15,658 nt of DNA from a virus (lineage: Duplodnaviria > Heunggongvirae > Uroviricota > Caudoviricetes). Where the stretch lies: IMG/VR virus record IMGVR_UViG_2721755662_000003. One strand, written 5' to 3'. Positions within the stretch are counted from its first letter, which is position 1. Every line of letters begins with the position of its first letter. The notes beneath the pieces are model-generated. The model did not search any database, was not told the origin of the DNA, and saw only the letters and a program-made list of their open reading frames with translations. A program made the position numbers and the translations under genes. This document shows, in pieces, positions 2,860-15,658 of this stretch.

Positions 2860-3140
2860 CGCTTGCAAAAAATTATCACGGGGCTGTATGCTTCCCCCGT
2901 CGCCCACATGGCGACCGGGTTTGACAGCCTGAATACATCTGGCGGACAGCCGCCCACATCCGATAAGCGGTTTTTTTGTGTCCGTAAACCTACCCATACC
3001 CGCATTATGGCGGGGCGTAACGGGGGAGCCTTTGTGCTCGCTGGTTTCCAGATGACCAGTCTGTCAACCCTGTTACGTCTCGCCACCATGTTTGACAGCG
3101 TAGTAGCGAGACTCCTTAAAATTCATCTGGGAGCCTTTCA
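2860..3140 (+). promoter_or_regulatory. Structured leader between the two paralogous small genes: nested stem-loops, repeated GTTTGACAGC and GCCCACAT motifs, terminator-like GCGG+T7
   Basis: GGCTGT(2872)...CCCGTCGCC cacat GGCGACCGGG...ACAGCC(2930); GGCGG acag CCGCC (2932-2945); aagcgg ttttttt (2956-2967); CTGTCAA(3062)/TTGACAG(3092); GTCTCGC(3077)/GCGAGAC(3107). Confidence 0.35.
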
Positions 3141-4331: not shown

Positions 4332-4557
4332 TATTTACCACGAAACAATAGACCGCGCATTTCTTGCACTTTCTCACAGTGAAAACATGCTGGAAATATT
4401 GCGCATATGGCTTGAAACACTTGGCGACAATGAACGCGACAAACAAAAATCAAGAATTGCCACGGCATCAATAACGCTTCTTGAGCCTGTAATAATGGAA
4501 CTGCAAGAAATAGATCTATTGCACGACAGATATAAAGAACAGCACACCGGAGAATAA
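4324..4557 (+). CDS. Hypothetical protein (77 aa)
   Basis: ORF track; translational coupling to neighbours. Confidence 0.5.
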   Translation: MRDIYHETIDRAFLALSHSENMLEILRIWLETLGDNERDKQKSRIATASITLLEPVIMELQEIDLLHDRYKEQHTGE

Positions 4558-4562
4558 AAATA

Positions 4563-4862
4563 ATGAAACTTAAATATTCTGGCTTAACTGCCAGTGGCAA
4601 CACTCACCCTAAATTTACGCGCGGCGATATTTACCGCGACCAGTACGGCGGCACGGTAATGATTAAGGGCGTGGAAGAACGGCGCGTAACCTACCGCCGT
4701 GAAGGTTACGAATATGATTGCGTGATGCCTGTTTATCAGTTCCGGCGTGATTTTTCTCTGGTACAGACCGCGCCGCATAACGTGTCCACCAGCAACGCCA
4801 GGGCACGGGCAAACATCCAGAAGCTGAAAACCATGATTAACGGATTCAGGGGTAAAAAATGA
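4563..4862 (+). CDS. Hypothetical protein (99 aa) immediately upstream of and overlapping primase start
   Basis: ORF track; stop overlaps primase ATG (ATGA). Confidence 0.5.
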   Translation: MKLKYSGLTASGNTHPKFTRGDIYRDQYGGTVMIKGVEERRVTYRREGYEYDCVMPVYQFRRDFSLVQTAPHNVSTSNARARANIQKLKTMINGFRGKK

Positions 4863-6613
4863 AACTGGCACCGAACGTAAAACAGCAGTCACGCGGCATA
4901 AAACACAAAGAAACAGAAGTCATTATTTTTGCGGGTAGTGATGCCTGGTCACACGCAAAACAATGGCAGGAACATGACGCGCGTATGGCCGGAGATAATG
5001 AGCCTCCTGTGTGGCTTGGGGAGCAGCAGTTATCCGAACTGGATAAGCTGCAAATTGTGCCGGAAGGCAGAAAATCCGTGCGCATATTCAGGGCCGGATA
5101 TCTTGCGCCAGTAATGATAAAGGCGATTGGTCAGAAGCTGGCGGCGGCAGGCGTACAGGATGCAAATTTTTACCCTGATGGTATGCACGGTCAGAAGGTG
5201 GAGAACTGGCGCGAATATCTGGCCCGTGAGCGCCAGAATCTTTCTGATGGTCTGGTCATTGAGCTTCCGGTAAAGCAAAAGGCGCAACTTTCGCAGATGG
5301 CGGACAGTGAGCGCGCGCAGCTGCTTGCCGATCGCTTTGATGGCGTTTGCGTACATCCTGAAAGTGAAATCGTTCACGTATGGCGCGGCGGGGTATGGTG
5401 TCCGGTCAGCACAATGGAACTTAGCCGCGAAATGGTGGCGATCTATTCAGAGCACAGGGCCACTTTCAGCAAGCGCGTAATCAATAACGCCGTGGAAGCG
5501 TTAAAAGTTATTGCCGAACCAATGGGCGAGCCGTCCGGCGATTTGTTGCCGTTCGCCAATGGTGCGCTTGACCTGAAAACGGGGGAATTTTCCCCGCACA
5601 CGCCGGAGAACTGGATCACCACGCACAACGGCATTGAGTACACGCCACCAGCACCAGGGGAGAACATCCGCGATAACGCGCCAAACTTTCATAAATGGCT
5701 TGAGCACGCAGCCGGAAAAGACCCGCGCAAGATGATGCGTATATGTGCCGCGCTGTACATGATTATGGCGAACCGGTACGACTGGCAGATGTTTATTGAG
5801 GCCACCGGAGACGGCGGGAGCGGTAAAAGTACATTCACACACATAGCCAGCCTTCTGGCAGGGAAACAGAACACGGTAAGCGCTGAAATGACATCGCTTG
5901 ATGATGCTGGTGGACGTGCGCAGGTTGTCGGGAGTCGTCTTATCGTCCTGGCTGACCAGCCGAAATATACAGGCGAAGGAACGGGCATCAAGAAAATCAC
6001 GGGCGGTGACCCCGTGGAAATTAACCCGAAATACGAAAAGCGTTTCACGGCGGTAATCAGGGCGGTGGTGCTGGCGACCAACAATAACCCGATGATATTC
6101 ACCGAACGGGCCGGAGGTGTGGCACGTCGTCGCGTGATTTTCCGTTTCGACAATATCGTCAGTGAGGCCGAAAAAGACAGGGAGCTACCGGAAAAGATCG
6201 CGGCTGAAATCCCTGTCATTATCCGCCGATTGCTGGCGAACTTTACCGACCCTGAGAAGGCACGGGCTTTACTACTGGAACAGCGTGACGGTGATGAAGC
6301 TCTGGCAATAAAGCAACAGACGGATCCGGTTATTGAGTTTTGCCAGTTCCTGAATTTTCTGGAGGAAGCACGCGGCCTGATGATGGGCGGCGGTGGCGAT
6401 TCAGTGAAGTACACGACCAGAAACAGCCTTTACCGCGTCTATCTGGCGTTTATGGCGTACGCAGGCAGGAGCAAACCGCTAAACGTAAATGACTTTGGCA
6501 AGGCTATGAAGCCAGCCGCGAAAGTTTACGGACATGAATATATTACGCGGAAAGTTAAGGGAGTAACGCAGACTAACGCAATAACAACAGACGAGTGCGA
6601 CGCGTTTTTATAA
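4859..6613 (+). CDS. Replication protein: P4-family primase C-terminal type (D5_N-like region plus SF3 helicase NTPase), 584 aa
   Basis: Walker A GDGGSGKST, Walker-B-like LIVLADQP, D5_N-like region LPFANGALDLKTGEFSPHTPENWITTHNGIEY; followed directly by iteron ori. Confidence 0.85.
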   Translation: MKLAPNVKQQSRGIKHKETEVIIFAGSDAWSHAKQWQEHDARMAGDNEPPVWLGEQQLSELDKLQIVPEGRKSVRIFRAGYLAPVMIKAIGQKLAAAGVQDANFYPDGMHGQKVENWREYLARERQNLSDGLVIELPVKQKAQLSQMADSERAQLLADRFDGVCVHPESEIVHVWRGGVWCPVSTMELSREMVAIYSEHRATFSKRVINNAVEALKVIAEPMGEPSGDLLPFANGALDLKTGEFSPHTPENWITTHNGIEYTPPAPGENIRDNAPNFHKWLEHAAGKDPRKMMRICAALYMIMANRYDWQMFIEATGDGGSGKSTFTHIASLLAGKQNTVSAEMTSLDDAGGRAQVVGSRLIVLADQPKYTGEGTGIKKITGGDPVEINPKYEKRFTAVIRAVVLATNNNPMIFTERAGGVARRRVIFRFDNIVSEAEKDRELPEKIAAEIPVIIRRLLANFTDPEKARALLLEQRDGDEALAIKQQTDPVIEFCQFLNFLEEARGLMMGGGGDSVKYTTRNSLYRVYLAFMAYAGRSKPLNVNDFGKAMKPAAKVYGHEYITRKVKGVTQTNAITTDECDAFL

Positions 6614-6619
6614 TTTTTT

Positions 6620-6860
6620 GTAATTGCTGTCTACCCTGTCTACCTGAGTAAAGAAAAATACATTTAATTCAGTGCATTAAGTTAGGTAGATAACCTTTTT
6701 TTACTGTCTACCCACTATCTACCCTCTCTACCTGATTTTACCTGAATCAGACAGGGAGGTAGACACGGGGTAGATAGTGGATAAAAGCACTCTACCCCGC
6801 TGAAAGCCGCGCCATTACTGGTATGAGGGCCACTAAGGTAGATAAGGTAGACAAGGGGAG
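6620..6860. repeat. Iteron-type replication origin: at least 11 copies of the core TCTACC/GGTAGA (octamer YRTCTACC) in both orientations with AT-rich spacers
   Basis: tgtctacc at 6628, 6637, 6706; tatctacc 6717; tctctacc 6726; ctctaccc 6791; inverted copies ggtaga at 6685, 6758, 6771, 6838, 6847; AT-rich tracts 6611-6620, 6650-6680, 6692-6702. Confidence 0.7.
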
Positions 6861-9356: not shown

Positions 9357-9929
9357 ATGGGTGAAAAAATTATGAAGAGTATGGAAATCCGGTCATCGGA
9401 AATCACTACCAGCGGAGCCGGTACGCTGACGGGCTACGTTGTTCGCTGGGATAAGCTTTCAGAACTGCTATGGGGGGAGTTTTACGAAAAATTCCAGCGG
9501 GGGGCGTTTACTGAGTGGCTTGCGGCGGGTAATGACGTTCGCGGCCTGTATGAGCATGACCACAGCATGTTACTGGGGCGCACCCGTTCCGGCACGCTGA
9601 AACTGGAAGAGGACGAAACAGGGTTACGCTTTGAACTGACCCCACCGGATACCAGTACAGGGCGCGACGTTATCGAACTGGTTAAGCGTGGGGACATCTC
9701 GGGGATGAGCTTTGGCTTTCGCTCCCGTAAGGATGTATGGGATACCACAACAGATCCATGCGTGCGCACCGTGCTGGTGGCGGAACTGTACGAAATTACC
9801 GTTACATCGGTACCGGCTTACCCCGATTCCGGCGTGGAGCTGGCCCGCCGTTCCCTGTATGAGCAGCACCCCGAAAAAATGCCGCGTGCGGATAATCGCC
9901 GCTGGTGGGTGGATTTAGCGGGGGTGTGA
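9357..9929 (+). CDS. Prohead maturation protease, HK97 family (start may be ATG 9372)
   Basis: Motifs YVVRWDK, GLYEHDH, GLRFEL, DISGMSFGF typical of HK97-type prohead proteases; positioned between capsid and portal. Confidence 0.85.
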   Translation: MGEKIMKSMEIRSSEITTSGAGTLTGYVVRWDKLSELLWGEFYEKFQRGAFTEWLAAGNDVRGLYEHDHSMLLGRTRSGTLKLEEDETGLRFELTPPDTSTGRDVIELVKRGDISGMSFGFRSRKDVWDTTTDPCVRTVLVAELYEITVTSVPAYPDSGVELARRSLYEQHPEKMPRADNRRWWVDLAGV

Positions 9930-9930
9930 T

Positions 9931-11142
9931 ATGTGGCCTTTCAGAAGAAAAAAAGAGCAGCGCAGCATGACGCTGGATGAATTTATGGCGCTGGCTGGCA
10001 CATCGAACACGGGGGCGGGTGAGTACGTATCATCGGGGACAGCGGAATCACTGCCCGCCGTCATGAACGCCGTGACGGTCATCTCTGAGGCGGTGGCTAC
10101 CATGCCGTGTTACCTGTACCTGGTACGCAATGAGAAGGGGAAGGAGGCCCGCGAGTGGCTTGATTCTCATCCGGTCGATCACATCCTCAACGAGCGCCCG
10201 AACGCATGGCAAACCCCCTACCAGTTTAAGCGAATGATGATCCGCCACTGCCTGTTAAACGGTAATGCTTATGCGGTGATTCAGTGGGGGCGTGATGGTT
10301 TTCCGGCGGCTTTACATCCTTACCCGCCGCAGTCGGTGAACGTGGAGCAGACAGGCGAACACAACTGGCGCTACTGCATCACTGACGCCTACACCGGAAA
10401 CACCCGCAACTATTTACCGTGGGAAGTACTTCACCTTCGTTACTCCACGGATGACGGCTTTATGGGGCGCTCACCTGTAACCATCTGCCGCGAATCGCTG
10501 GGGCTTGGGCTGGCCCAACAACGCCACGGCGCGAGCGTGATGCGTGATGGCATGATGGCGGCAGGGGTTATCACGTCAGGCGAATGGCTGGACGGCGTGA
10601 AGGGCAAACAGGCATTAGCCGCACTGGAACGCTACAAAGGGGCCAGAAACGCCGGAAAAACGCCCATCCTTGAAGGGGGTATGAGCTATCAGCAGCTGGG
10701 CATGAGTAATCAGGATGCTGAATGGCTGGCCTCCCGTCGCTTCACCATTGAAGACATCGCCCGAATGTTCAACGTCTCGCCGATTTTTTTGCAGGAATAC
10801 AGCAACAGCACCTACAGCAATTTCAGCGAGGCAAGCCGCGCATTTCTCACCATGACGATGCGCCCGTGGCTGGCGAACTTTGAGCAGCAGATAAAAAACG
10901 CCCTGCTGGTGGCCTCGCCTGTACCTGGTATCCGGTATCAGGTGGAGTTTGACAGCGCGGACCTGTTACGGGCCACACCTGGCGAACGCTTTGCCACCTA
11001 TGAGCGCGGCATCAAATCCGGCGTTATGTGTCCGAACGAAGCCCGCGAACGTGAAGGTCTGTCACCGCGTGATGGTGGTGATGAGTTCAGCCAGGCATGG
11101 AAACAGGAAGTAAAAATCAGCGAGGGAGAAAAACCGGAATGA
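9931..11142 (+). CDS. Portal protein, HK97 family (403 aa)
   Basis: Conserved portal segments NGNAYAVIQW, RRFTIEDIARMFNVSPIFL, MRPWLANFEQQI. Confidence 0.9.
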   Translation: MWPFRRKKEQRSMTLDEFMALAGTSNTGAGEYVSSGTAESLPAVMNAVTVISEAVATMPCYLYLVRNEKGKEAREWLDSHPVDHILNERPNAWQTPYQFKRMMIRHCLLNGNAYAVIQWGRDGFPAALHPYPPQSVNVEQTGEHNWRYCITDAYTGNTRNYLPWEVLHLRYSTDDGFMGRSPVTICRESLGLGLAQQRHGASVMRDGMMAAGVITSGEWLDGVKGKQALAALERYKGARNAGKTPILEGGMSYQQLGMSNQDAEWLASRRFTIEDIARMFNVSPIFLQEYSNSTYSNFSEASRAFLTMTMRPWLANFEQQIKNALLVASPVPGIRYQVEFDSADLLRATPGERFATYERGIKSGVMCPNEAREREGLSPRDGGDEFSQAWKQEVKISEGEKPE

Positions 11143-12210: not shown

Positions 12211-12376
12211 GCGGGAACAAAACCGCCTTATCCGTGGACTTATAAGGCAGCGTGACGCATGGAAGACACAGGAAACAGGGCATAAAGATAAAGCGTCAGG
12301 ACGCGCAGAACGCATCACAGCGAAGCGATTAACCGACCGTGACCGCGAGGTTATGGAATGTTTCCGCAATCGCTGA
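12203..12376 (+). CDS. Possible small highly charged protein (57 aa) between HNH and TerS; low confidence
   Basis: 3' part of track ORF 11972-12376 lying outside HNH; MNEREQNRLIRGLIRQRDAWK...; no clear SD. Confidence 0.25.
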   Translation: MNEREQNRLIRGLIRQRDAWKTQETGHKDKASGRAERITAKRLTDRDREVMECFRNR

Positions 12377-12379
12377 TGA

Positions 12380-12440
12380 GGCTGTATGACGGGGTGGGGG
12401 GCGTTTTCAGGACAAACCCGACCCCGCCGGGCACCGAACG
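12380..12440. other. Candidate cos/packaging site: G-run and C-run rich segment between HNH and terS
   Basis: acggggtggggggcg ... cccgaccccgccgggc; position matches where cos lies in HK97-type phages that use HNH+TerS+TerL. Confidence 0.3.
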
Positions 12441-12498
12441 CCTCCTCAAATTTTTATGCACGGGAATTTTTTGAAAAATAATCTGACGAAAAATAAGC

Positions 12499-12855
12499 AT
12501 GGCAAGACCACCGAAAGCCCCCGCCTACCTGGATGACATCGCCGTGAAGCAGTGGCGGGAAAAATCGCGGCAGCTTGCGGAACGGGGAGACCTGACCCCC
12601 GCCGACTGGAGCAATCTGGAACTGTATTGTGTCAACTACTCCATTTACCGGAAAGCCGTCGCAGACCTTGCGGCGCGCGGGTTCAGCATTGTTAACAGTC
12701 AGGGCGGCGAGAGCAGAAACCCCGCATTAAGCGCGAAATCAGACGCTGAAAGGGTGATGATAAAAATGGCCTCCTTGCTCGGTTTTGACCCGATAAGCCG
12801 CCGTAAAAACCCACCGGAAACAGAAGAAGAGGACGAGCTTGACCGCCTGGAATAA
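12499..12855 (+). CDS. terS: Terminase small subunit, P27-like family (118 aa)
   Basis: WSNLELYCVNYSIYRKA...NPALS...GFDPISR pattern of P27-family TerS; overlaps terL start. Confidence 0.8.
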   Translation: MARPPKAPAYLDDIAVKQWREKSRQLAERGDLTPADWSNLELYCVNYSIYRKAVADLAARGFSIVNSQGGESRNPALSAKSDAERVMIKMASLLGFDPISRRKNPPETEEEDELDRLE

Positions 12856-14500
12856 GTACGCAGAAGACGTAAAAACGGGCAAAATTCCGGCCTGTAAACG
12901 GCTGAAACAGGCCGTTAAACGGTACTTTTCGGACCTTAAAAGCCCCCTTTACACGTTCGATCGTGAGGTTGTGGAGCGGTTTATTGCCTTTTCCAGGGTG
13001 TGCCCGCACGTAAAAGGACCGATGCGTGGCAGACCCATTGAGCTGGAGCCGTGGCAGCAGTTCGCCTTTGCGTGCATCCTCGGCTTTAAGGTTAAGGCCA
13101 CCGGACGGCGCAAATACACGAGCGCCTTTATCGAAGTGCCGCGCAAAAATGCGAAATCCACGACCGCCGCGATTCTGGCTAACTGGTTTCTGATTATGGA
13201 GAACGGTCAGCAGGATATCTACACCGCAGCGGTGAGCCGTGACCAGGCGCGGATCGTCTTTGATGATGCGCGTCAGATGTGCCTTTTATCCCGACCGTTA
13301 CGCAGGCGGGTGAATATTCAGGCGCATAAGGTGATACACCCGAAAAGCAACAGCCTGTTAAAGCCGCTGGCAGCAAAAGCGGCAACCATCGAGGGAACAA
13401 ACCCCAGCCTTTCCATCGTGGACGAATACCACTTGCACCCCGATAACGGCGTTTATTCCGCGCTTGAGCTGGGGATGGGCGCACGTCCCGAAGGGCTGTT
13501 ATTTGCCATTACCACATCAGGCAGCAACGTCGTTTCAGCCTGTAAGCAGCACTATGATTATTGCTGCCAGATCCTGGACGGCGAAGAGGTTAACGATTCA
13601 ATTTTTGTACTGATTTACGAACTGGACGACGAAAACGAGGTTGATGATCCGGCGATGTGGATAAAGGCGAACCCTAATATTGATGTTTCCGTCGATCGTG
13701 AAAAACTGGCCTCAACCATCCAGAAAGCGCGGGGTATTCCGTCGCAGTGGGTGGAGATGATGACAAAGCGATTTAATATCTGGTGCCAGGGGGCTACCCC
13801 GTGGATGGGTAACGGCGCATGGGCTGAGTGTGCCGGAACGTTCACGGAGGAAGATTTACACGGCCAGGAGTGTTACGCGGGGCTGGACTTATCATCAACC
13901 AGCGATATTTCCAGCGTGTGCTATGCCTTTCCGGTCGGTAAAACCATTATGCTGGTTTCCCGTCACTATCTGCCGGAATTTCAGCTACAGAACCCCGCCA
14001 ATAAAAACCGCGCCATCTATCGTCAGTGGGCTAAAGCAGGCTGGATACGCACAACGCCTGGCGACTGCATTGATTACGACCGGATCAGAGATGACATCAT
14101 GCAGGACGCGGAGAAATTTAATATCAGGCTGGTGGGCTTTGATACGTGGAACGCCACGCATCTCAGAACGCAATTACAGGGGGCAGGTTTTGAGGTGGAG
14201 CCGTTCCCGCAAACCTACCTCAGATTCAGTCCGGCGGCGAAATCGTTCGAAGTTTTTGTTAACCGCAGGGTGATTGTGCATCGTGGCGATCCGGTGTTGT
14301 CCTGGTCGATGAGTAACGTCGTGATGCAGAGTGACGCGAACGCCAATATCAAGCCGAACAAGAAAAAATCACCGAACAAGATAGACCCGAGCGTGGCGGC
14401 GCTGATGGCGTTTGGTACATTCCAGGCAGAGCATGAGGATTTTGCTTTTGATATAAGCGACAGCCACCGCCAGAAACTGGAAGAATTTAGCGGGGTGTAA
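12839..14500 (+). CDS. terL: Terminase large subunit (553 aa)
   Basis: N-terminal ATPase region then nuclease region, typical TerL layout; overlaps TerS; size typical. Confidence 0.9.
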   Translation: MTAWNKYAEDVKTGKIPACKRLKQAVKRYFSDLKSPLYTFDREVVERFIAFSRVCPHVKGPMRGRPIELEPWQQFAFACILGFKVKATGRRKYTSAFIEVPRKNAKSTTAAILANWFLIMENGQQDIYTAAVSRDQARIVFDDARQMCLLSRPLRRRVNIQAHKVIHPKSNSLLKPLAAKAATIEGTNPSLSIVDEYHLHPDNGVYSALELGMGARPEGLLFAITTSGSNVVSACKQHYDYCCQILDGEEVNDSIFVLIYELDDENEVDDPAMWIKANPNIDVSVDREKLASTIQKARGIPSQWVEMMTKRFNIWCQGATPWMGNGAWAECAGTFTEEDLHGQECYAGLDLSSTSDISSVCYAFPVGKTIMLVSRHYLPEFQLQNPANKNRAIYRQWAKAGWIRTTPGDCIDYDRIRDDIMQDAEKFNIRLVGFDTWNATHLRTQLQGAGFEVEPFPQTYLRFSPAAKSFEVFVNRRVIVHRGDPVLSWSMSNVVMQSDANANIKPNKKKSPNKIDPSVAALMAFGTFQAEHEDFAFDISDSHRQKLEEFSGV

Positions 14501-14513
14501 TGAGGTCAGCAGC

Positions 14514-14795
14514 ATGACAGAAGCCGAAATAACGGGATTAATCCGCCGCGTTGCCGGAATCAGCCAGCAGGCTGACGAACAGGCCACGCAGCCGGACAGC
14601 GTGACAGCCGAAAACTATGCGCGTGTTGTTGCTGAGGTGATGCGCCGTGATGGTATAGAACTTAATGGCGTGGATATGCGCAACATACGAACCAGAGTTC
14701 TTGAGTTGCTGGCCTACCGTCGCCGCGTGGAGATGTATCGGGAGAAGGAGAAAATAACGTACCACTGGAAGAAGCCGGAGCGGTTGCGGCGGTAA
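14514..14795 (+). CDS. Hypothetical protein (93 aa) after terL
   Basis: ORF track; Arg-rich C-terminus; no recognised family. Confidence 0.45.
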   Translation: MTEAEITGLIRRVAGISQQADEQATQPDSVTAENYARVVAEVMRRDGIELNGVDMRNIRTRVLELLAYRRRVEMYREKEKITYHWKKPERLRR

Positions 14796-14957
14796 CTGGT
14801 TGATATTCCCGACGGCCCAAAAATGGGTTGGCTACACCCCTCACAACTACGACATTTTCGCAGTTTAATTAATGGTCAGCTTAATCGCTAACCCGCTGAT
14901 ATTTTCGGAAACCTCAATTTGAGGAAGTCGGCGCGGTAACTCGCTGAACTTTAAGCA

Positions 14958-15313
14958 AAGCGCAAAATTGCGCTTGCTGAATAATCATTATGATTACGCA
15001 GATGATTAAGGAATGACCGAAGGCGGAAATTCGCCTGTGGTTAATGGGGGAGTTGCAGATCTGCAACTCGACCATGAAACTACGGAAACTACCCGTAGTT
15101 TGGGTAGTAAGAGTAACACCCAGATTTTGGGGCTTACTCGTGATACCCAAATTTGGGGTATCAGTGGCAACCATAACGACTTTCGTTACGGTTGATGCTT
15201 TTACCCCATTGGGGGAAAGGTATTACGATAATCATAACACCTACCGAACAGGTAAAGCCCACCAGCCTGATTAACGTTTAACCGGAAAAAAATTCCGGTA
15301 GGTGGGGATCCCC
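14958..15313. promoter_or_regulatory. Non-coding, palindrome-dense right arm
   Basis: AAGCGCAAAATTGCGCTT (14958-14975); TAATCATtATGATTA (14982-14996); perfect 18-bp AGTTGCAGATCTGCAACT (15051-15068); GAAACTAC x2 and 8-bp stem AACTACGG/CCGTAGTT (15076-15100); GATACCCAAATTTGGGGTATC (15142-15162); CCGGAA-aaaaa-TTCCGG (15282-15298); GGGGATCCCC (15304-15313). Confidence 0.4.
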
Positions 15314-15382
15314 ATATCGACATTAACGCCCCTCATGAATTGGTGTGCTTCCCCCTGGAAAGATGATCCGCCTGTATATTTC

Positions 15383-15447
15383 TTGTGTCTATTTGTTCCA
15401 CGTTGTTTCATACAGTGCACCGAACGGTGTAGTCACTGGTGTAGTCA
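15383..15447 (+). repeat. att-proximal direct repeats: TTGTGT/TTGTTC/TTGTTT (15383, 15394, 15403) and GGTGTAGTCA x2 (15426-15435, 15438-15447)
   Basis: Read directly; lies roughly 70-140 bp inside the inferred right junction, where arm-type and Xis-type sites usually sit. Confidence 0.45.
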
Positions 15448-15493
15448 TTTTGCGATTTTTGGCACTTTTTGCGGTGTTAATTATTTAATTAAA

Positions 15494-15658
15494 TCAATGT
15501 GTTATGCGAAATAAGTTATATATAACAGCAATAAATAATGCGAGAATAAACGGCACGATGATCTCGGCGGCAAAACGGATACCGCAGAGAATAATGACCA
15601 GCATTCCCAACATAATGACGATTTTTAGGCCATTGAGCGTGATGATCGGCTTTGCCAT
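15494..15658 (-). pseudogene. tqsA: Truncated 5' fragment of a tqsA (ydgG)-like AI-2 exporter gene: 46 host-like codons then 8 island-derived codons and stop
   Basis: Minus-strand translation [46 protein letters not shown] then YNLFRITH-stop; the first 46 residues match my recollection of the E. coli TqsA N-terminus. Confidence 0.55.

What the first reader, a model, noticed from the sequence alone, without database searches (positions are those of the whole stretch)
14900..15320. About 400 bp of dense dyad symmetry with no credible ORF at the right arm
At least seven palindromes or hairpins occur here, including a perfect 18-mer AGTTGCAGATCTGCAACT and a 21-bp near-palindrome GATACCCAAATTTGGGGTATC, plus a duplicated GAAACTAC. 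The track ORFs here are short and overlap these elements. This density is unusual for spacer DNA and suggests a structured ncRNA, a cluster of protein-binding operators, or att-proximal architectural sites.
Basis: seen in the sequence. Interest (0 to 1): 0.5.

Follow-up and report, generated by a model that had tools for sequence, protein, structure and literature searches.

The report
Palindrome-and-IHF-site repeat mosaic in satellite
The hairpin-dense stretch is real: it is a non-coding patchwork of short palindromic repeat modules, several joined to a consensus IHF (DNA-bending protein) site, at the end of the packaging operon of an E. coli phage satellite, and it resembles the chromosome's REP/BIME repeats more than a single RNA gene or the integration site.

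Summary
Window 14900-15320 is the strongest folding outlier in the 15.7-kb window (z about -9 to -10 on both strands) and holds at least 12 palindromes. The window is a capsid-forming phage-inducible chromosomal island (cf-PICI) inserted in tqsA. The feature spans about 14790-15320. It lies after the last ORF of the packaging operon and inside the attP arm block (15375-15447).

It is a mosaic of independently shuffled modules, not one unit:
- About 48-bp repeat units. Each has a conserved linear motif that matches the IHF consensus WATCARNNNNTTR, always in one orientation, followed by a 5-bp palindrome. The palindrome sequence differs between copies but stays complementary (17 distinct stems).
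- A hairpin followed by ACGCAGATGATTAAGG.
- A 123-bp four-palindrome module (15045-15167). It appears to account for most of the matches found in 1557 of 5426 complete E. coli genomes, including non-cf PICIs.

Unit number varies from 0 to 6 consensus-matching units per island (more if degenerate copies are counted). G.T and A.C mispairs are equal (51 vs 47), so no RNA strand is favoured. There is no Rfam hit, no cosN, no ori-type iteron and no credible ORF.

Best reading (about 0.35): a satellite-specific BIME-1/RIB-like boundary element. Function is inferred, not shown.

The parts
14514..14795 (+). Last ORF of the packaging operon (93 aa, PHROG 1561, function unknown). It precedes the mosaic in the islands that carry it, and its stop codon TAA is the TAA of repeat unit 1.
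   Evidence: no Pfam, PDB or fold match
14790..14833 (+). Repeat unit 1. IHF consensus TATCAACCAGTTA on the minus strand at 14793-14805, then the palindrome GGCCCAAAAATGGGTT at 14814-14829.
   Evidence: (D1)
14845..14865 (.). Palindrome AACTACGACATTTTCGCAGTT. Other islands carry the perfect form AAACTACGAAATTTTCGTAGTTT.
14886..14933 (+). Repeat unit 2. IHF consensus TATCAGCGGGTTA on the minus strand at 14889-14901, then the palindrome CCTCAATTTGAGG at 14912-14924, then AAGTCGGCGCGG.
   Evidence: (D1)
14934..14979 (+). Repeat unit 3, with a degenerate IHF motif (TAACTCGCTGAAC), then the palindrome AAGCGCAAAATTGCGCTT at 14958-14975.
   Evidence: (D1, I20)
14980..15011 (+). Second unit type: hairpin AATCATTATGATT followed by the conserved ACGCAGATGATTAAGG. 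Other islands have GGTCATGATGACC or GTGATGATAATCAC in place of the hairpin.
   Evidence: (I10)
15014..15043 (.). Long hairpin TGACCGAAGGCGGAAATTCGCCTGTGGTTA. In other PICI types it lies downstream of the 123-bp module instead of upstream.
15045..15167 (+). 123-bp core module. It holds the 20-bp perfect palindrome with central GATC (15050-15069), GAAACTAC x2 with hairpin AAACTACGG/CCGTAGTTT, TACCC-N7-GGGTA at 15090-15106 and 15144-15160, and an imperfect copy at 15118-15132. It is the most widely shared piece.
15168..15215 (.). Palindromes CAACCATAACGACTTTCGTTACGGTTG (15168-15194) and ACCCCATTGGGGG (15203-15215).
   Evidence: (I2)
15238..15313 (.). Long-range inverted repeat CACCTACCG/CGGTAGGTG (15238-15246 and 15296-15304) enclosing CCGGAAAAAAATTCCGG (15282-15298), then GGGGATCCCC (15304-15313).
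   Evidence: I12, I17
15375..15447 (+). Not part of the mosaic: the attP arm block that ends in the direct repeat GGTGTAGTCA x2 (15426-15447). The same block sits just upstream of int at the left end.
   Evidence: (D5)

Best explanation
The stretch 14790-15320 is a satellite-specific mosaic of short palindromic repeat modules at the 3' end of the island's packaging operon. It is analogous to the REP/BIME-1 (RIB) elements of the E. coli chromosome.

Shown: (1) it is built from separable modules that recur in different orders and numbers in many E. coli and Shigella PICIs; (2) one module type pairs a one-orientation match to the IHF consensus with a palindrome kept complementary through sequence change; (3) there is no strand bias in wobble-type mispairs.

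Inferred mechanism: IHF binds each unit and bends the DNA sharply, giving a compact nucleoprotein stretch between the heavily transcribed late operon and the attP arm. The palindromes, transcribed as the operon's 3' tail, form hairpins that slow 3' exonucleases. On DNA, the stretch acts as a boundary for transcription and supercoiling, as proposed for REP/BIME. Copy number changes by recombination between the conserved linear motifs. The 123-bp module may in addition bind a dimeric protein at TACCC-N7-GGGTA.
For: Context: cf-PICI in tqsA. The mosaic lies after the last ORF and before the arm block.

Modularity: sub-segments match independently in 1557 of 5426 E. coli genomes. Order and number differ between islands.

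Units: 79 distinct aligned units have invariant TAA, 94% C, invariant Y-T, 96% G and invariant A, then TT/CG/AAA.

IHF consensus WATCARNNNNTTR: 135 hits in one orientation against 9 in the other in 40 kb of pooled arrays. Density is 4.2 per kb against at most 0.27 per kb in the rest of the fetched loci. There are 5 in the window against 1.0 expected, and 2 of them lie in units 1 and 2.

Hairpins: a perfect stem of at least 5 bp occurs in 51 of 65 units against 8% of shuffles. There are 17 distinct stems at the same position, with 4.71 of 5 Watson-Crick pairs against 1.86 when arms are permuted.

DNA level: G.T 51 against A.C 47.

The module is more conserved than the neighbouring ORF (92-95% against 81-85% identity).

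Precedent: BIME-1 linkers carry an IHF site, RIBs lie at 3' ends of transcription units, REP stems vary but keep complementarity, and copy number varies by locus and strain (PMC3333891).
Against: IHF binding rests on a consensus match only. The unit set was first collected with a pattern that enforced part of that consensus, although the later nhmmer pass did not. Positions inside the consensus 'NNNN' (C at 94%, G at 72%) and beyond the core are also conserved, so another reader of the motif is possible. Five-bp stems are too short to extrude as cruciforms, so a DNA-level need for complementarity is unexplained. The REP consensus, inverted REP pairing and genome-wide dispersal are absent. No transcript, 3'-end or protein-binding data were available. 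No intrinsic terminator is predicted inside the flagged stretch; the one terminator-like site found lies at 14781-14798, on the ORF stop codon.
Confidence: 0.35

Rival explanations
1. RNA-level element only. The stretch is the structured 3' UTR of the packaging operon, or one or more processed non-coding RNAs, whose hairpins act in RNA (stability, processing or protein sponge). On this reading the IHF-like motif is a single-stranded RNA motif.
For: Extreme folding z-scores. Stems are kept through compensatory change while loops drift. All units are co-oriented with the upstream operon. No terminator separates the last ORF from the region other than a weak one at 14781-14798.
Against: No excess of G.U over A.C on either strand (51 against 47). 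No Rfam family even at E<=10. Modules move independently and vary in number. Only 2 of 36 pairs covary in the conserved 123-bp module. Three palindromes share one half-site and spacer length, which RNA stems do not need.
Confidence: 0.2
2. Repeat debris without a function of its own. The right end is where cargo genes are gained and lost. The units are scars or boundary pieces that multiply by slippage and recombination. Their palindromes stay perfect through template-switch correction rather than selection.
For: Unit number ranges from 0 to 6 consensus-matching units per island. Indels are of cassette size. Cargo such as a Q-like antiterminator gene sits between modules in L004. Units also occur in PICIs without ORF93. 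The equal G.T and A.C counts are what neutral transitions give.
Against: The 123-bp module is more conserved than the adjacent protein-coding gene across PICI families. The linear motif keeps invariant positions across 79 distinct copies. The orientation is strictly uniform.
Confidence: 0.2
3. Operator cluster. The 123-bp module (TACCC-N7-GGGTA x2 plus an imperfect copy, and the 20-bp GATC palindrome) is bound by a dimeric regulator of the island or of the helper phage and controls a late step such as induction, packaging or int expression.
For: There are three exact TACCC-N7-GGGTA sites in the window (15090, 15144 and 13795 inside terL) against about 0.015 expected, plus 15118 with one mismatch. 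Centre-to-centre spacing is 26.5 bp. Half-sites are kept while the spacer varies, and symmetric double changes occur (GATACCC..GGGTATC to GATCCCC..GGGGATC). The module is shared by PICIs with different morphogenesis genes.
Against: No candidate binding protein was identified. The motif is found nowhere else in 1.2 Mb of related loci except the terL site. No promoter is nearby. The same data fit hairpins.
Confidence: 0.15
4. Part of the attP intasome: binding sites for Int, AlpA and IHF that shape excision and integration.
For: The region is close to attR. IHF consensus sites are present.
Against: The arm-type block shared by both att arms lies outside, at 15375-15447. Islands carrying near-identical attP arm-block sequence carry different numbers and orders of units. 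The same modules occur in islands at other att sites such as clpS and tRNA.
Confidence: 0.05
5. Packaging (cos/pac) site or second replication site (P4 crr-like).
For: Repeats and palindromes are typical of such sites. Some islands have two module copies flanking an iteron-rich 436-bp stretch.
Against: There is no lambda cosN within 3 mismatches in the region. The published EcCICFT073 cos1 sequence has a canonical cosN and shows no resemblance to the module (by eye); the cos2 sequence was not retrieved. The expected cf-PICI cos position is between the HNH and terS genes (12376-12499). All 11 ori iterons TCTACCY lie at 6630-6851 and none in the right end. The module is shared by islands with different terminase and replication genes.
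Confidence: 0.05

Closest known systems
BIME-1 / RIB (RIP) elements of E. coli: an IHF site between REP palindromes at the 3' ends of transcription units
   Same: Non-coding and located at the 3' end of an operon. Built from short palindromes whose stems vary but stay complementary. Combined with an IHF consensus at a fixed distance. Mosaic in build, with copy number varying between strains (PMC3333891).
   Different: No REP/PU consensus and no GTAG/CTAC-flanked 35-nt palindrome. Units are all co-oriented rather than in inverted pairs. Stems are only about 5 bp. The elements are confined to phage satellites of Escherichia and Shigella rather than dispersed over the chromosome.
Lambda-type cos sites of PICIs (EcCICFT073 cos1/cos2) with cosB and the IHF site I1
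   Same: A cis-acting non-coding site of a PICI that can include an IHF site (PMC6092414, PMC9026076).
   Different: No cosQ or cosN sequence here. The module is shared by islands with unrelated terminase systems.
Structured non-coding RNAs of phages and satellites (C4/CI antisense RNA, Rfam RF01695)
   Same: A strongly folding non-coding stretch in a satellite. A true C4 RNA is present elsewhere in this window, at 3003-3090.
   Different: No Rfam match in 14700-15658. No strand bias. The build is modular and shuffled.
P4 crr / iteron clusters
   Same: A second repeat-rich non-coding region far from ori in a satellite that has a P4-alpha-like primase.
   Different: The ori iteron TCTACCY is absent from the right end.

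Membership tests
BIME-1 / RIB (RIP) repetitive elements | REP (PU) palindromes of 20-40 nt with the family consensus and a flanking GTAG/CTAC | tested here: not met
   By eye on the sequence: the palindromes are 11-20 bp with many different sequences. No REP consensus was seen and no formal REP-consensus scan was run. BLAST hits of the region all fall in PICI right ends.
BIME-1 / RIB (RIP) repetitive elements | Two REPs in inverted orientation around a conserved linker | tested here: not met
   Units are tandem and co-oriented (135 against 9).
BIME-1 / RIB (RIP) repetitive elements | IHF consensus in the conserved linear part | tested here: met
   WATCARNNNNTTR at 14793-14805 and 14889-14901. 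Density in arrays is 4.2 per kb.
BIME-1 / RIB (RIP) repetitive elements | Location at the 3' end of a transcription unit | tested here: met
   The mosaic starts on the stop codon of the last ORF of the packaging operon.
BIME-1 / RIB (RIP) repetitive elements | IHF actually binds | not testable with these tools
   Needs EMSA, footprinting or ChIP.
Known RNA families (Rfam 15) | Covariance-model match at or near the gathering score | tested here: not met
   Nothing at gathering score. The best hit in 14700-15658 is E 0.83 at 20.9 bits against a 64.5-bit cut-off, and it lies outside the region.
Functional RNA hairpins in general | Excess of G.U over A.C in stems on the transcribed strand | tested here: not met
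   G.T 51 against A.C 47 in 212 distinct hairpins.
attP arm of a tyrosine integrase | Arm-type integrase repeats shared by both arms; fixed architecture for a given integrase | tested here: not met
   The shared block is at 15375-15447, outside the region. Array composition varies between islands that carry near-identical arm-block sequence.
Lambda-type cos | cosN GGGCGGCGACCT with cosQ upstream | tested here: not met
   No match within 3 mismatches in 14800-15658. Reference sequences were taken from PMC6092414 Fig. S5.
Iteron-type replication site (ori or P4 crr) | Copies of the island's own iteron | tested here: not met
   All 11 TCTACCY copies lie at 6630-6851.
Type III toxin-antitoxin RNA repeats | Near-identical tandem repeats next to a toxin endoribonuclease gene | tested here: not met
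   The units differ in sequence, and no gene follows before attR.
Integron attC sites | Inverse core RYYYAAC paired with core GTTRRRY at the other end of an imperfect palindrome | tested here: not met
   By eye on the unit listings: many units begin GCCTAAC, but no inverted GTTRRRY partner was seen, and the repeats are direct. No formal pattern search was run.

The most novel reading that the evidence does not exclude
The array of co-oriented high-consensus IHF sites could be an amplifiable IHF sink. When the satellite replicates, hundreds of copies of 2-6 sites would draw IHF away from IHF-dependent steps of the helper phage (cos cleavage, integration, silencing of rha-type genes), or would time the satellite's own late steps. 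One hint: a near-identical unit (31 of 33 nt, a perfect IHF consensus and a compensated hairpin) lies inside a Rha-family gene of P1-like phage-plasmids. From my own recollection of the literature, not checked here, rha genes were defined by toxicity in IHF-deficient hosts. Nothing tested here excludes this reading, and nothing supports it directly.
Probability: 0.06. Interest if true: 0.8.

Novelty: new variant of a known kind. Interest (0 to 1): 0.45.

Why it matters
PICIs and cf-PICIs are under intense study as gene-transfer agents, yet none of the PICI papers I searched mentions IHF sites or palindromic repeats in this part of the island; two of them were searched for these terms directly, the others only for cos sites. 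This analysis shows a conserved, rule-based architecture there (an IHF consensus plus a covarying palindrome, and a 123-bp module that appears to account for most of the matches found in 1557 of 5426 complete E. coli genomes). It is a defined target for deletion and binding experiments. It is also a handy sequence marker for the right end of this satellite group. If it works as a boundary or IHF-loaded element, it would extend the REP/BIME idea from chromosomes to mobile satellites.

Tried and rejected
- Rfam at gathering score and at E<=10: nothing in the region.
- tRNA and tmRNA scan: none.
- Promoter and terminator scan: nothing above shuffles.
- Phage genome collection: no match.
- Lambda cosN and the published EcCICFT073 cos1 sequence: not similar. 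The cos2 sequence was not retrieved.
- P4 crr-like second iteron site: the iterons are confined to 6630-6851.
- Coding potential: the internal ORFs have no family. The minus strand is full of stops and the units sit in different frames. The resemblance to a Rha-family protein is therefore a nucleotide-level match, not a pseudogene.
- ORF93 as a clue: it is a narrow family (36 representatives). The 3-helix model has pLDDT 71.5 and there is no PDB sequence, Pfam or fold match.
- GTDB representative-genome scan with ORF93: one Shigella locus only.
- Metagenome scan with the unit motif: the true hits are all E. coli-type PICIs and the rest are chance.
- CsrA-type GGA motifs, a sigma-54 promoter, the RfaH ops element and integron attC: considered by eye on the sequence and dropped (spacing or partner motif missing).
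- TACCC-N7-GGGTA elsewhere in related loci: only the module and one terL site.

Full report
**What the window is.** The 651-bp stretch 14800-15450 is 100% identical to many E. coli chromosomes. In strain FORC_069 the annotated neighbourhood shows a roughly 15.5-kb island inserted in tqsA. The gene order is integrase, HTH regulator, Icd-like genes, primase, SSB and PerC, followed by major capsid, prohead protease, portal, head closure, connector, HNH, TerS (P27 family), TerL, a 93-aa hypothetical ORF, about 700 bp without annotation, and the 5' fragment of tqsA. This is the gene order of a capsid-forming PICI as described for EcCIEDL933 (bioRxiv 10.1101/2022.09.08.507074). The flagged region therefore lies after the last ORF of the packaging operon and before attR.

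**Check of the observation.**
The 18-mer is in fact a 20-bp perfect palindrome at 15050-15069.
- Region 14880-15320 folds with z = -10.05 on the + strand and -10.65 on the - strand, with no shuffle as good.
- In a 200-nt scan of the whole window, the three windows covering 14901-15300 are the three strongest outliers. The next ones are the region after the primase gene and the C4 RNA locus.
- The internal ORFs have no significant family.
The feature begins earlier than flagged, at 14790.

**It is a mosaic, not one unit.**
- A sensitive blastn search against 5,426 complete E. coli genomes finds matches in 1,557 genomes, but only 203 cover most of the query.
- Separate sub-segments match on their own. 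Judging by the sampled rows, window 15045-15167 appears to account for most of these matches; 14888-14979 and 15228-15319 also match independently.
- The same pieces occur at the right end of other PICI types at other att sites. Examples are a cf-PICI next to clpS (L002), a PICI with capsid, decoration and terS genes (L003), and one with a Q-like gene (L004).
- Eighty viral contigs carrying the 18-mer, and 80 more found through the 93-aa ORF, show the pieces in different orders and numbers.
- For example, the hairpin GACCGA(A/G)GGCGGAA(A)TTCGCC.. lies upstream of the 123-bp module here but downstream of it in L003-type islands.

**Repeat units.**
- Reading the arrays side by side reveals a unit of about 48 bp. 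It starts with a conserved linear motif, [G/C]NTAAC(C/T)N(G)(C/T)TGAT(A)TT(Y)(Y)CGNAAA.
- The motif is followed at a fixed distance by a short palindrome, then (A/G)RGNCGG(CG)CGG.
- The window has three units (14790, 14886 and 14934; family D1). The TAA of unit 1 is the stop codon of the 93-aa ORF.
- An nhmmer pass with a profile of the units gives 79 distinct copies with invariant T-A-A, C at 94%, invariant Y-T, G at 96% and invariant A.
- The palindrome differs between copies but stays complementary: CCTCA/TGAGG, CCTGC/GCAGG, CCCCC/GGGGG, CAGCC/GGCTG, GCGCA/TGCGC, CTCAA/TTGAG, TCCAC/GTGGA and GCCCA/TGGGT.
- In numbers, 51 of 65 units have a perfect stem of at least 5 bp against 8% of shuffles. 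There are 17 distinct stems, with 4.71 of 5 Watson-Crick pairs against 1.86 after permuting arms.
- A second unit type is a variable hairpin (AATCAT-T-ATGATT, GGTCAT-G-ATGACC or GTGAT-GATA-ATCAC) followed by ACGCAGATGATTAAGG.

**The IHF consensus.**
- The invariant positions of the linear motif, read on the minus strand, spell WATCARNNNNTTR. This is the consensus for integration host factor; the consensus itself comes from my own knowledge of the literature.
- The window has 5 matches against 1.0 expected. Two are units 1 and 2, and one (15492-15504) lies between the arm block and the tqsA junction.
- In 40 kb of pooled arrays there are 135 matches in the unit orientation and 9 in the other. 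That is 4.2 per kb against at most 0.27 per kb in the rest of the fetched loci.
- Caveats: my first unit list used a pattern that enforced part of the consensus. The copies are related by descent. Positions outside the consensus are also conserved. Binding itself is untested.

**DNA or RNA?**
- If the hairpins worked in RNA from one strand, G.U should be tolerated and A.C removed. Among 212 distinct hairpins in the arrays the counts are G.T 51 and A.C 47. No strand is favoured.
- There is no Rfam hit and no promoter or terminator signal above shuffles.
- In the 123-bp module the consensus fold has 36 pairs. Only 2 show compensatory change: C-G to T-A at the base of the GATACCC palindrome, and A-T to C-G within it.
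- The module holds TACCC-N7-GGGTA twice exactly (15090 and 15144) and once imperfectly (15118), with centres 26.5 bp apart. A further exact copy lies in terL. About 0.015 exact matches are expected. A shared half-site and spacer length is more typical of protein operators than of RNA stems.
- In 1.2 Mb of related loci the motif occurs nowhere else.
- The module is more conserved between PICI families (92-95%) than the adjacent ORF (81-85%).

**What it is not.**
- Not the attP arm. Both att arms share a roughly 75-bp block ending in GGTGTAGTCACTGGTGTAGTCA, at 15375-15447 on the right and just upstream of int on the left. The arrays also vary between islands that carry near-identical arm-block sequence.
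- Not a lambda-type cos. There is no cosN within three mismatches. The published EcCICFT073 cos1 sequence is unrelated (PMC6092414 Fig. S5); the cos2 sequence was not retrieved. The likely cos of this island is the G+C-rich gap between the HNH gene and terS (12376-12499; this is an inference).
- Not a second iteron site. All 11 TCTACCY iterons lie at 6630-6851.
- Not coding. The minus strand is full of stops and the units fall in different frames.

**Distribution.**
- There is no match in 50,697 phage genomes.
- One Shigella locus was found among GTDB species representatives.
- The true metagenome hits are all E. coli-type PICIs, including islands without the 93-aa ORF.
- The 93-aa protein (PHROG 1561) is a narrow family. 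It has no Pfam, PDB or fold match, and its 3-helix model is of moderate confidence.

**An unexpected relative.** P1-like phage-plasmids carry, inside the coding sequence of a Rha-family gene next to icd, a stretch 31 of 33 nt identical to the unit. It includes a perfect IHF consensus (TATCAATAACTTA) and a compensated hairpin (CCTCCAATGGAGG). I could not establish what this means.

**Comparison with known systems.** The closest described kind is BIME-1/RIB of E. coli.
- Shared features: REP palindromes whose stems vary but keep complementarity, a linker that frequently carries an IHF site, location at 3' ends of transcription units, and copy number varying by locus and strain. Proposed roles are mRNA stabilisation, termination and topological insulation (PMC3333891).
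- Differences: the present mosaic fails the defining sequence and arrangement tests. It has no REP consensus, no inverted pairs and no dispersal over the chromosome. It is therefore an analogue, not a member.

**Verdict.**
- Shown: a real, highly non-random and conserved but modular non-coding architecture specific to Escherichia and Shigella PICIs.
- Inferred: IHF binding and a boundary or 3'-end role (confidence about 0.35).
- Rivals: an RNA-only element (0.2), functionless repeat debris at a cargo-exchange hot spot (0.2), an operator cluster in the 123-bp module (0.15), part of attP (0.05), and a cos or replication site (0.05).

Noticed in passing
window 6620-6860: Eleven exact copies of TCTACCY in both orientations around an A+T-rich stretch, directly after the primase gene (4859-6613). 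This is probably the island's replication origin. It is the second strongest folding outlier in the window (z -5.4 to -6.3).
   Followed up: partly
window 2886-2935 and 3003-3090: Rfam matches to the a1/b1 target (46.8 bits, just above the 46.7-bit cut-off) and to C4 antisense RNA (72.6 bits), next to Icd-like ORFs. This points to a P1/P4-type antisense immunity module in a capsid-forming PICI.
   Followed up: no
window 15375-15447 and L001 2095-2166: Both att arms carry the same roughly 75-bp block ending in GGTGTAGTCA(CT)GGTGTAGTCA. These are likely arm-type integrase sites. Islands at clpS have GGTGTAGTTAA x2 instead.
   Followed up: partly
window 15492-15504: A perfect IHF consensus, AATCAATGTGTTA, lies between the arm block and the tqsA junction. 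It is a candidate intasome IHF site.
   Followed up: no
L166 2494-2545 (NZ_CP021537.1, P1-like phage-plasmid): A sequence 31 of 33 nt identical to the repeat unit lies inside the coding sequence of a Rha-family gene next to icd. It includes the IHF consensus TATCAATAACTTA and the compensated hairpin CCTCCAATGGAGG. Most of the 51 matching plasmid records are of this kind.
   Followed up: partly
L011 ~4527-5083, L035 ~9559-10080, L023, L053: Some islands have two copies of the 123-bp module about 436 bp apart. They flank TTGCGGGTTA x3 and TAACCCGC x3 around an A+T-rich centre, which looks like an origin. In L035 the second copy is cut by an insertion that, from memory, resembles an IS903-type end.
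   Followed up: no
window 12376-12499: The G+C-rich gap between the HNH-associated ORF and terS (GACGGGGTGGGGGGCG...GACCCCGCCGGGC) is the expected position of the cos site of an HK97-type packaging module.
   Followed up: no
window 13795-13811: An exact TACCC-N7-GGGTA (TACCCCGTGGATGGGTA) lies inside terL. It matches the half-sites of the palindromes in the 123-bp module and is present in 29 of the fetched loci, which were not de-duplicated.
   Followed up: partly
L004 5204-5596 (NZ_AP045178.1): In one PICI a Q-family antiterminator gene and another small gene sit between repeat units and the later hairpin modules. This suggests the mosaic is where cargo genes are inserted.
   Followed up: no
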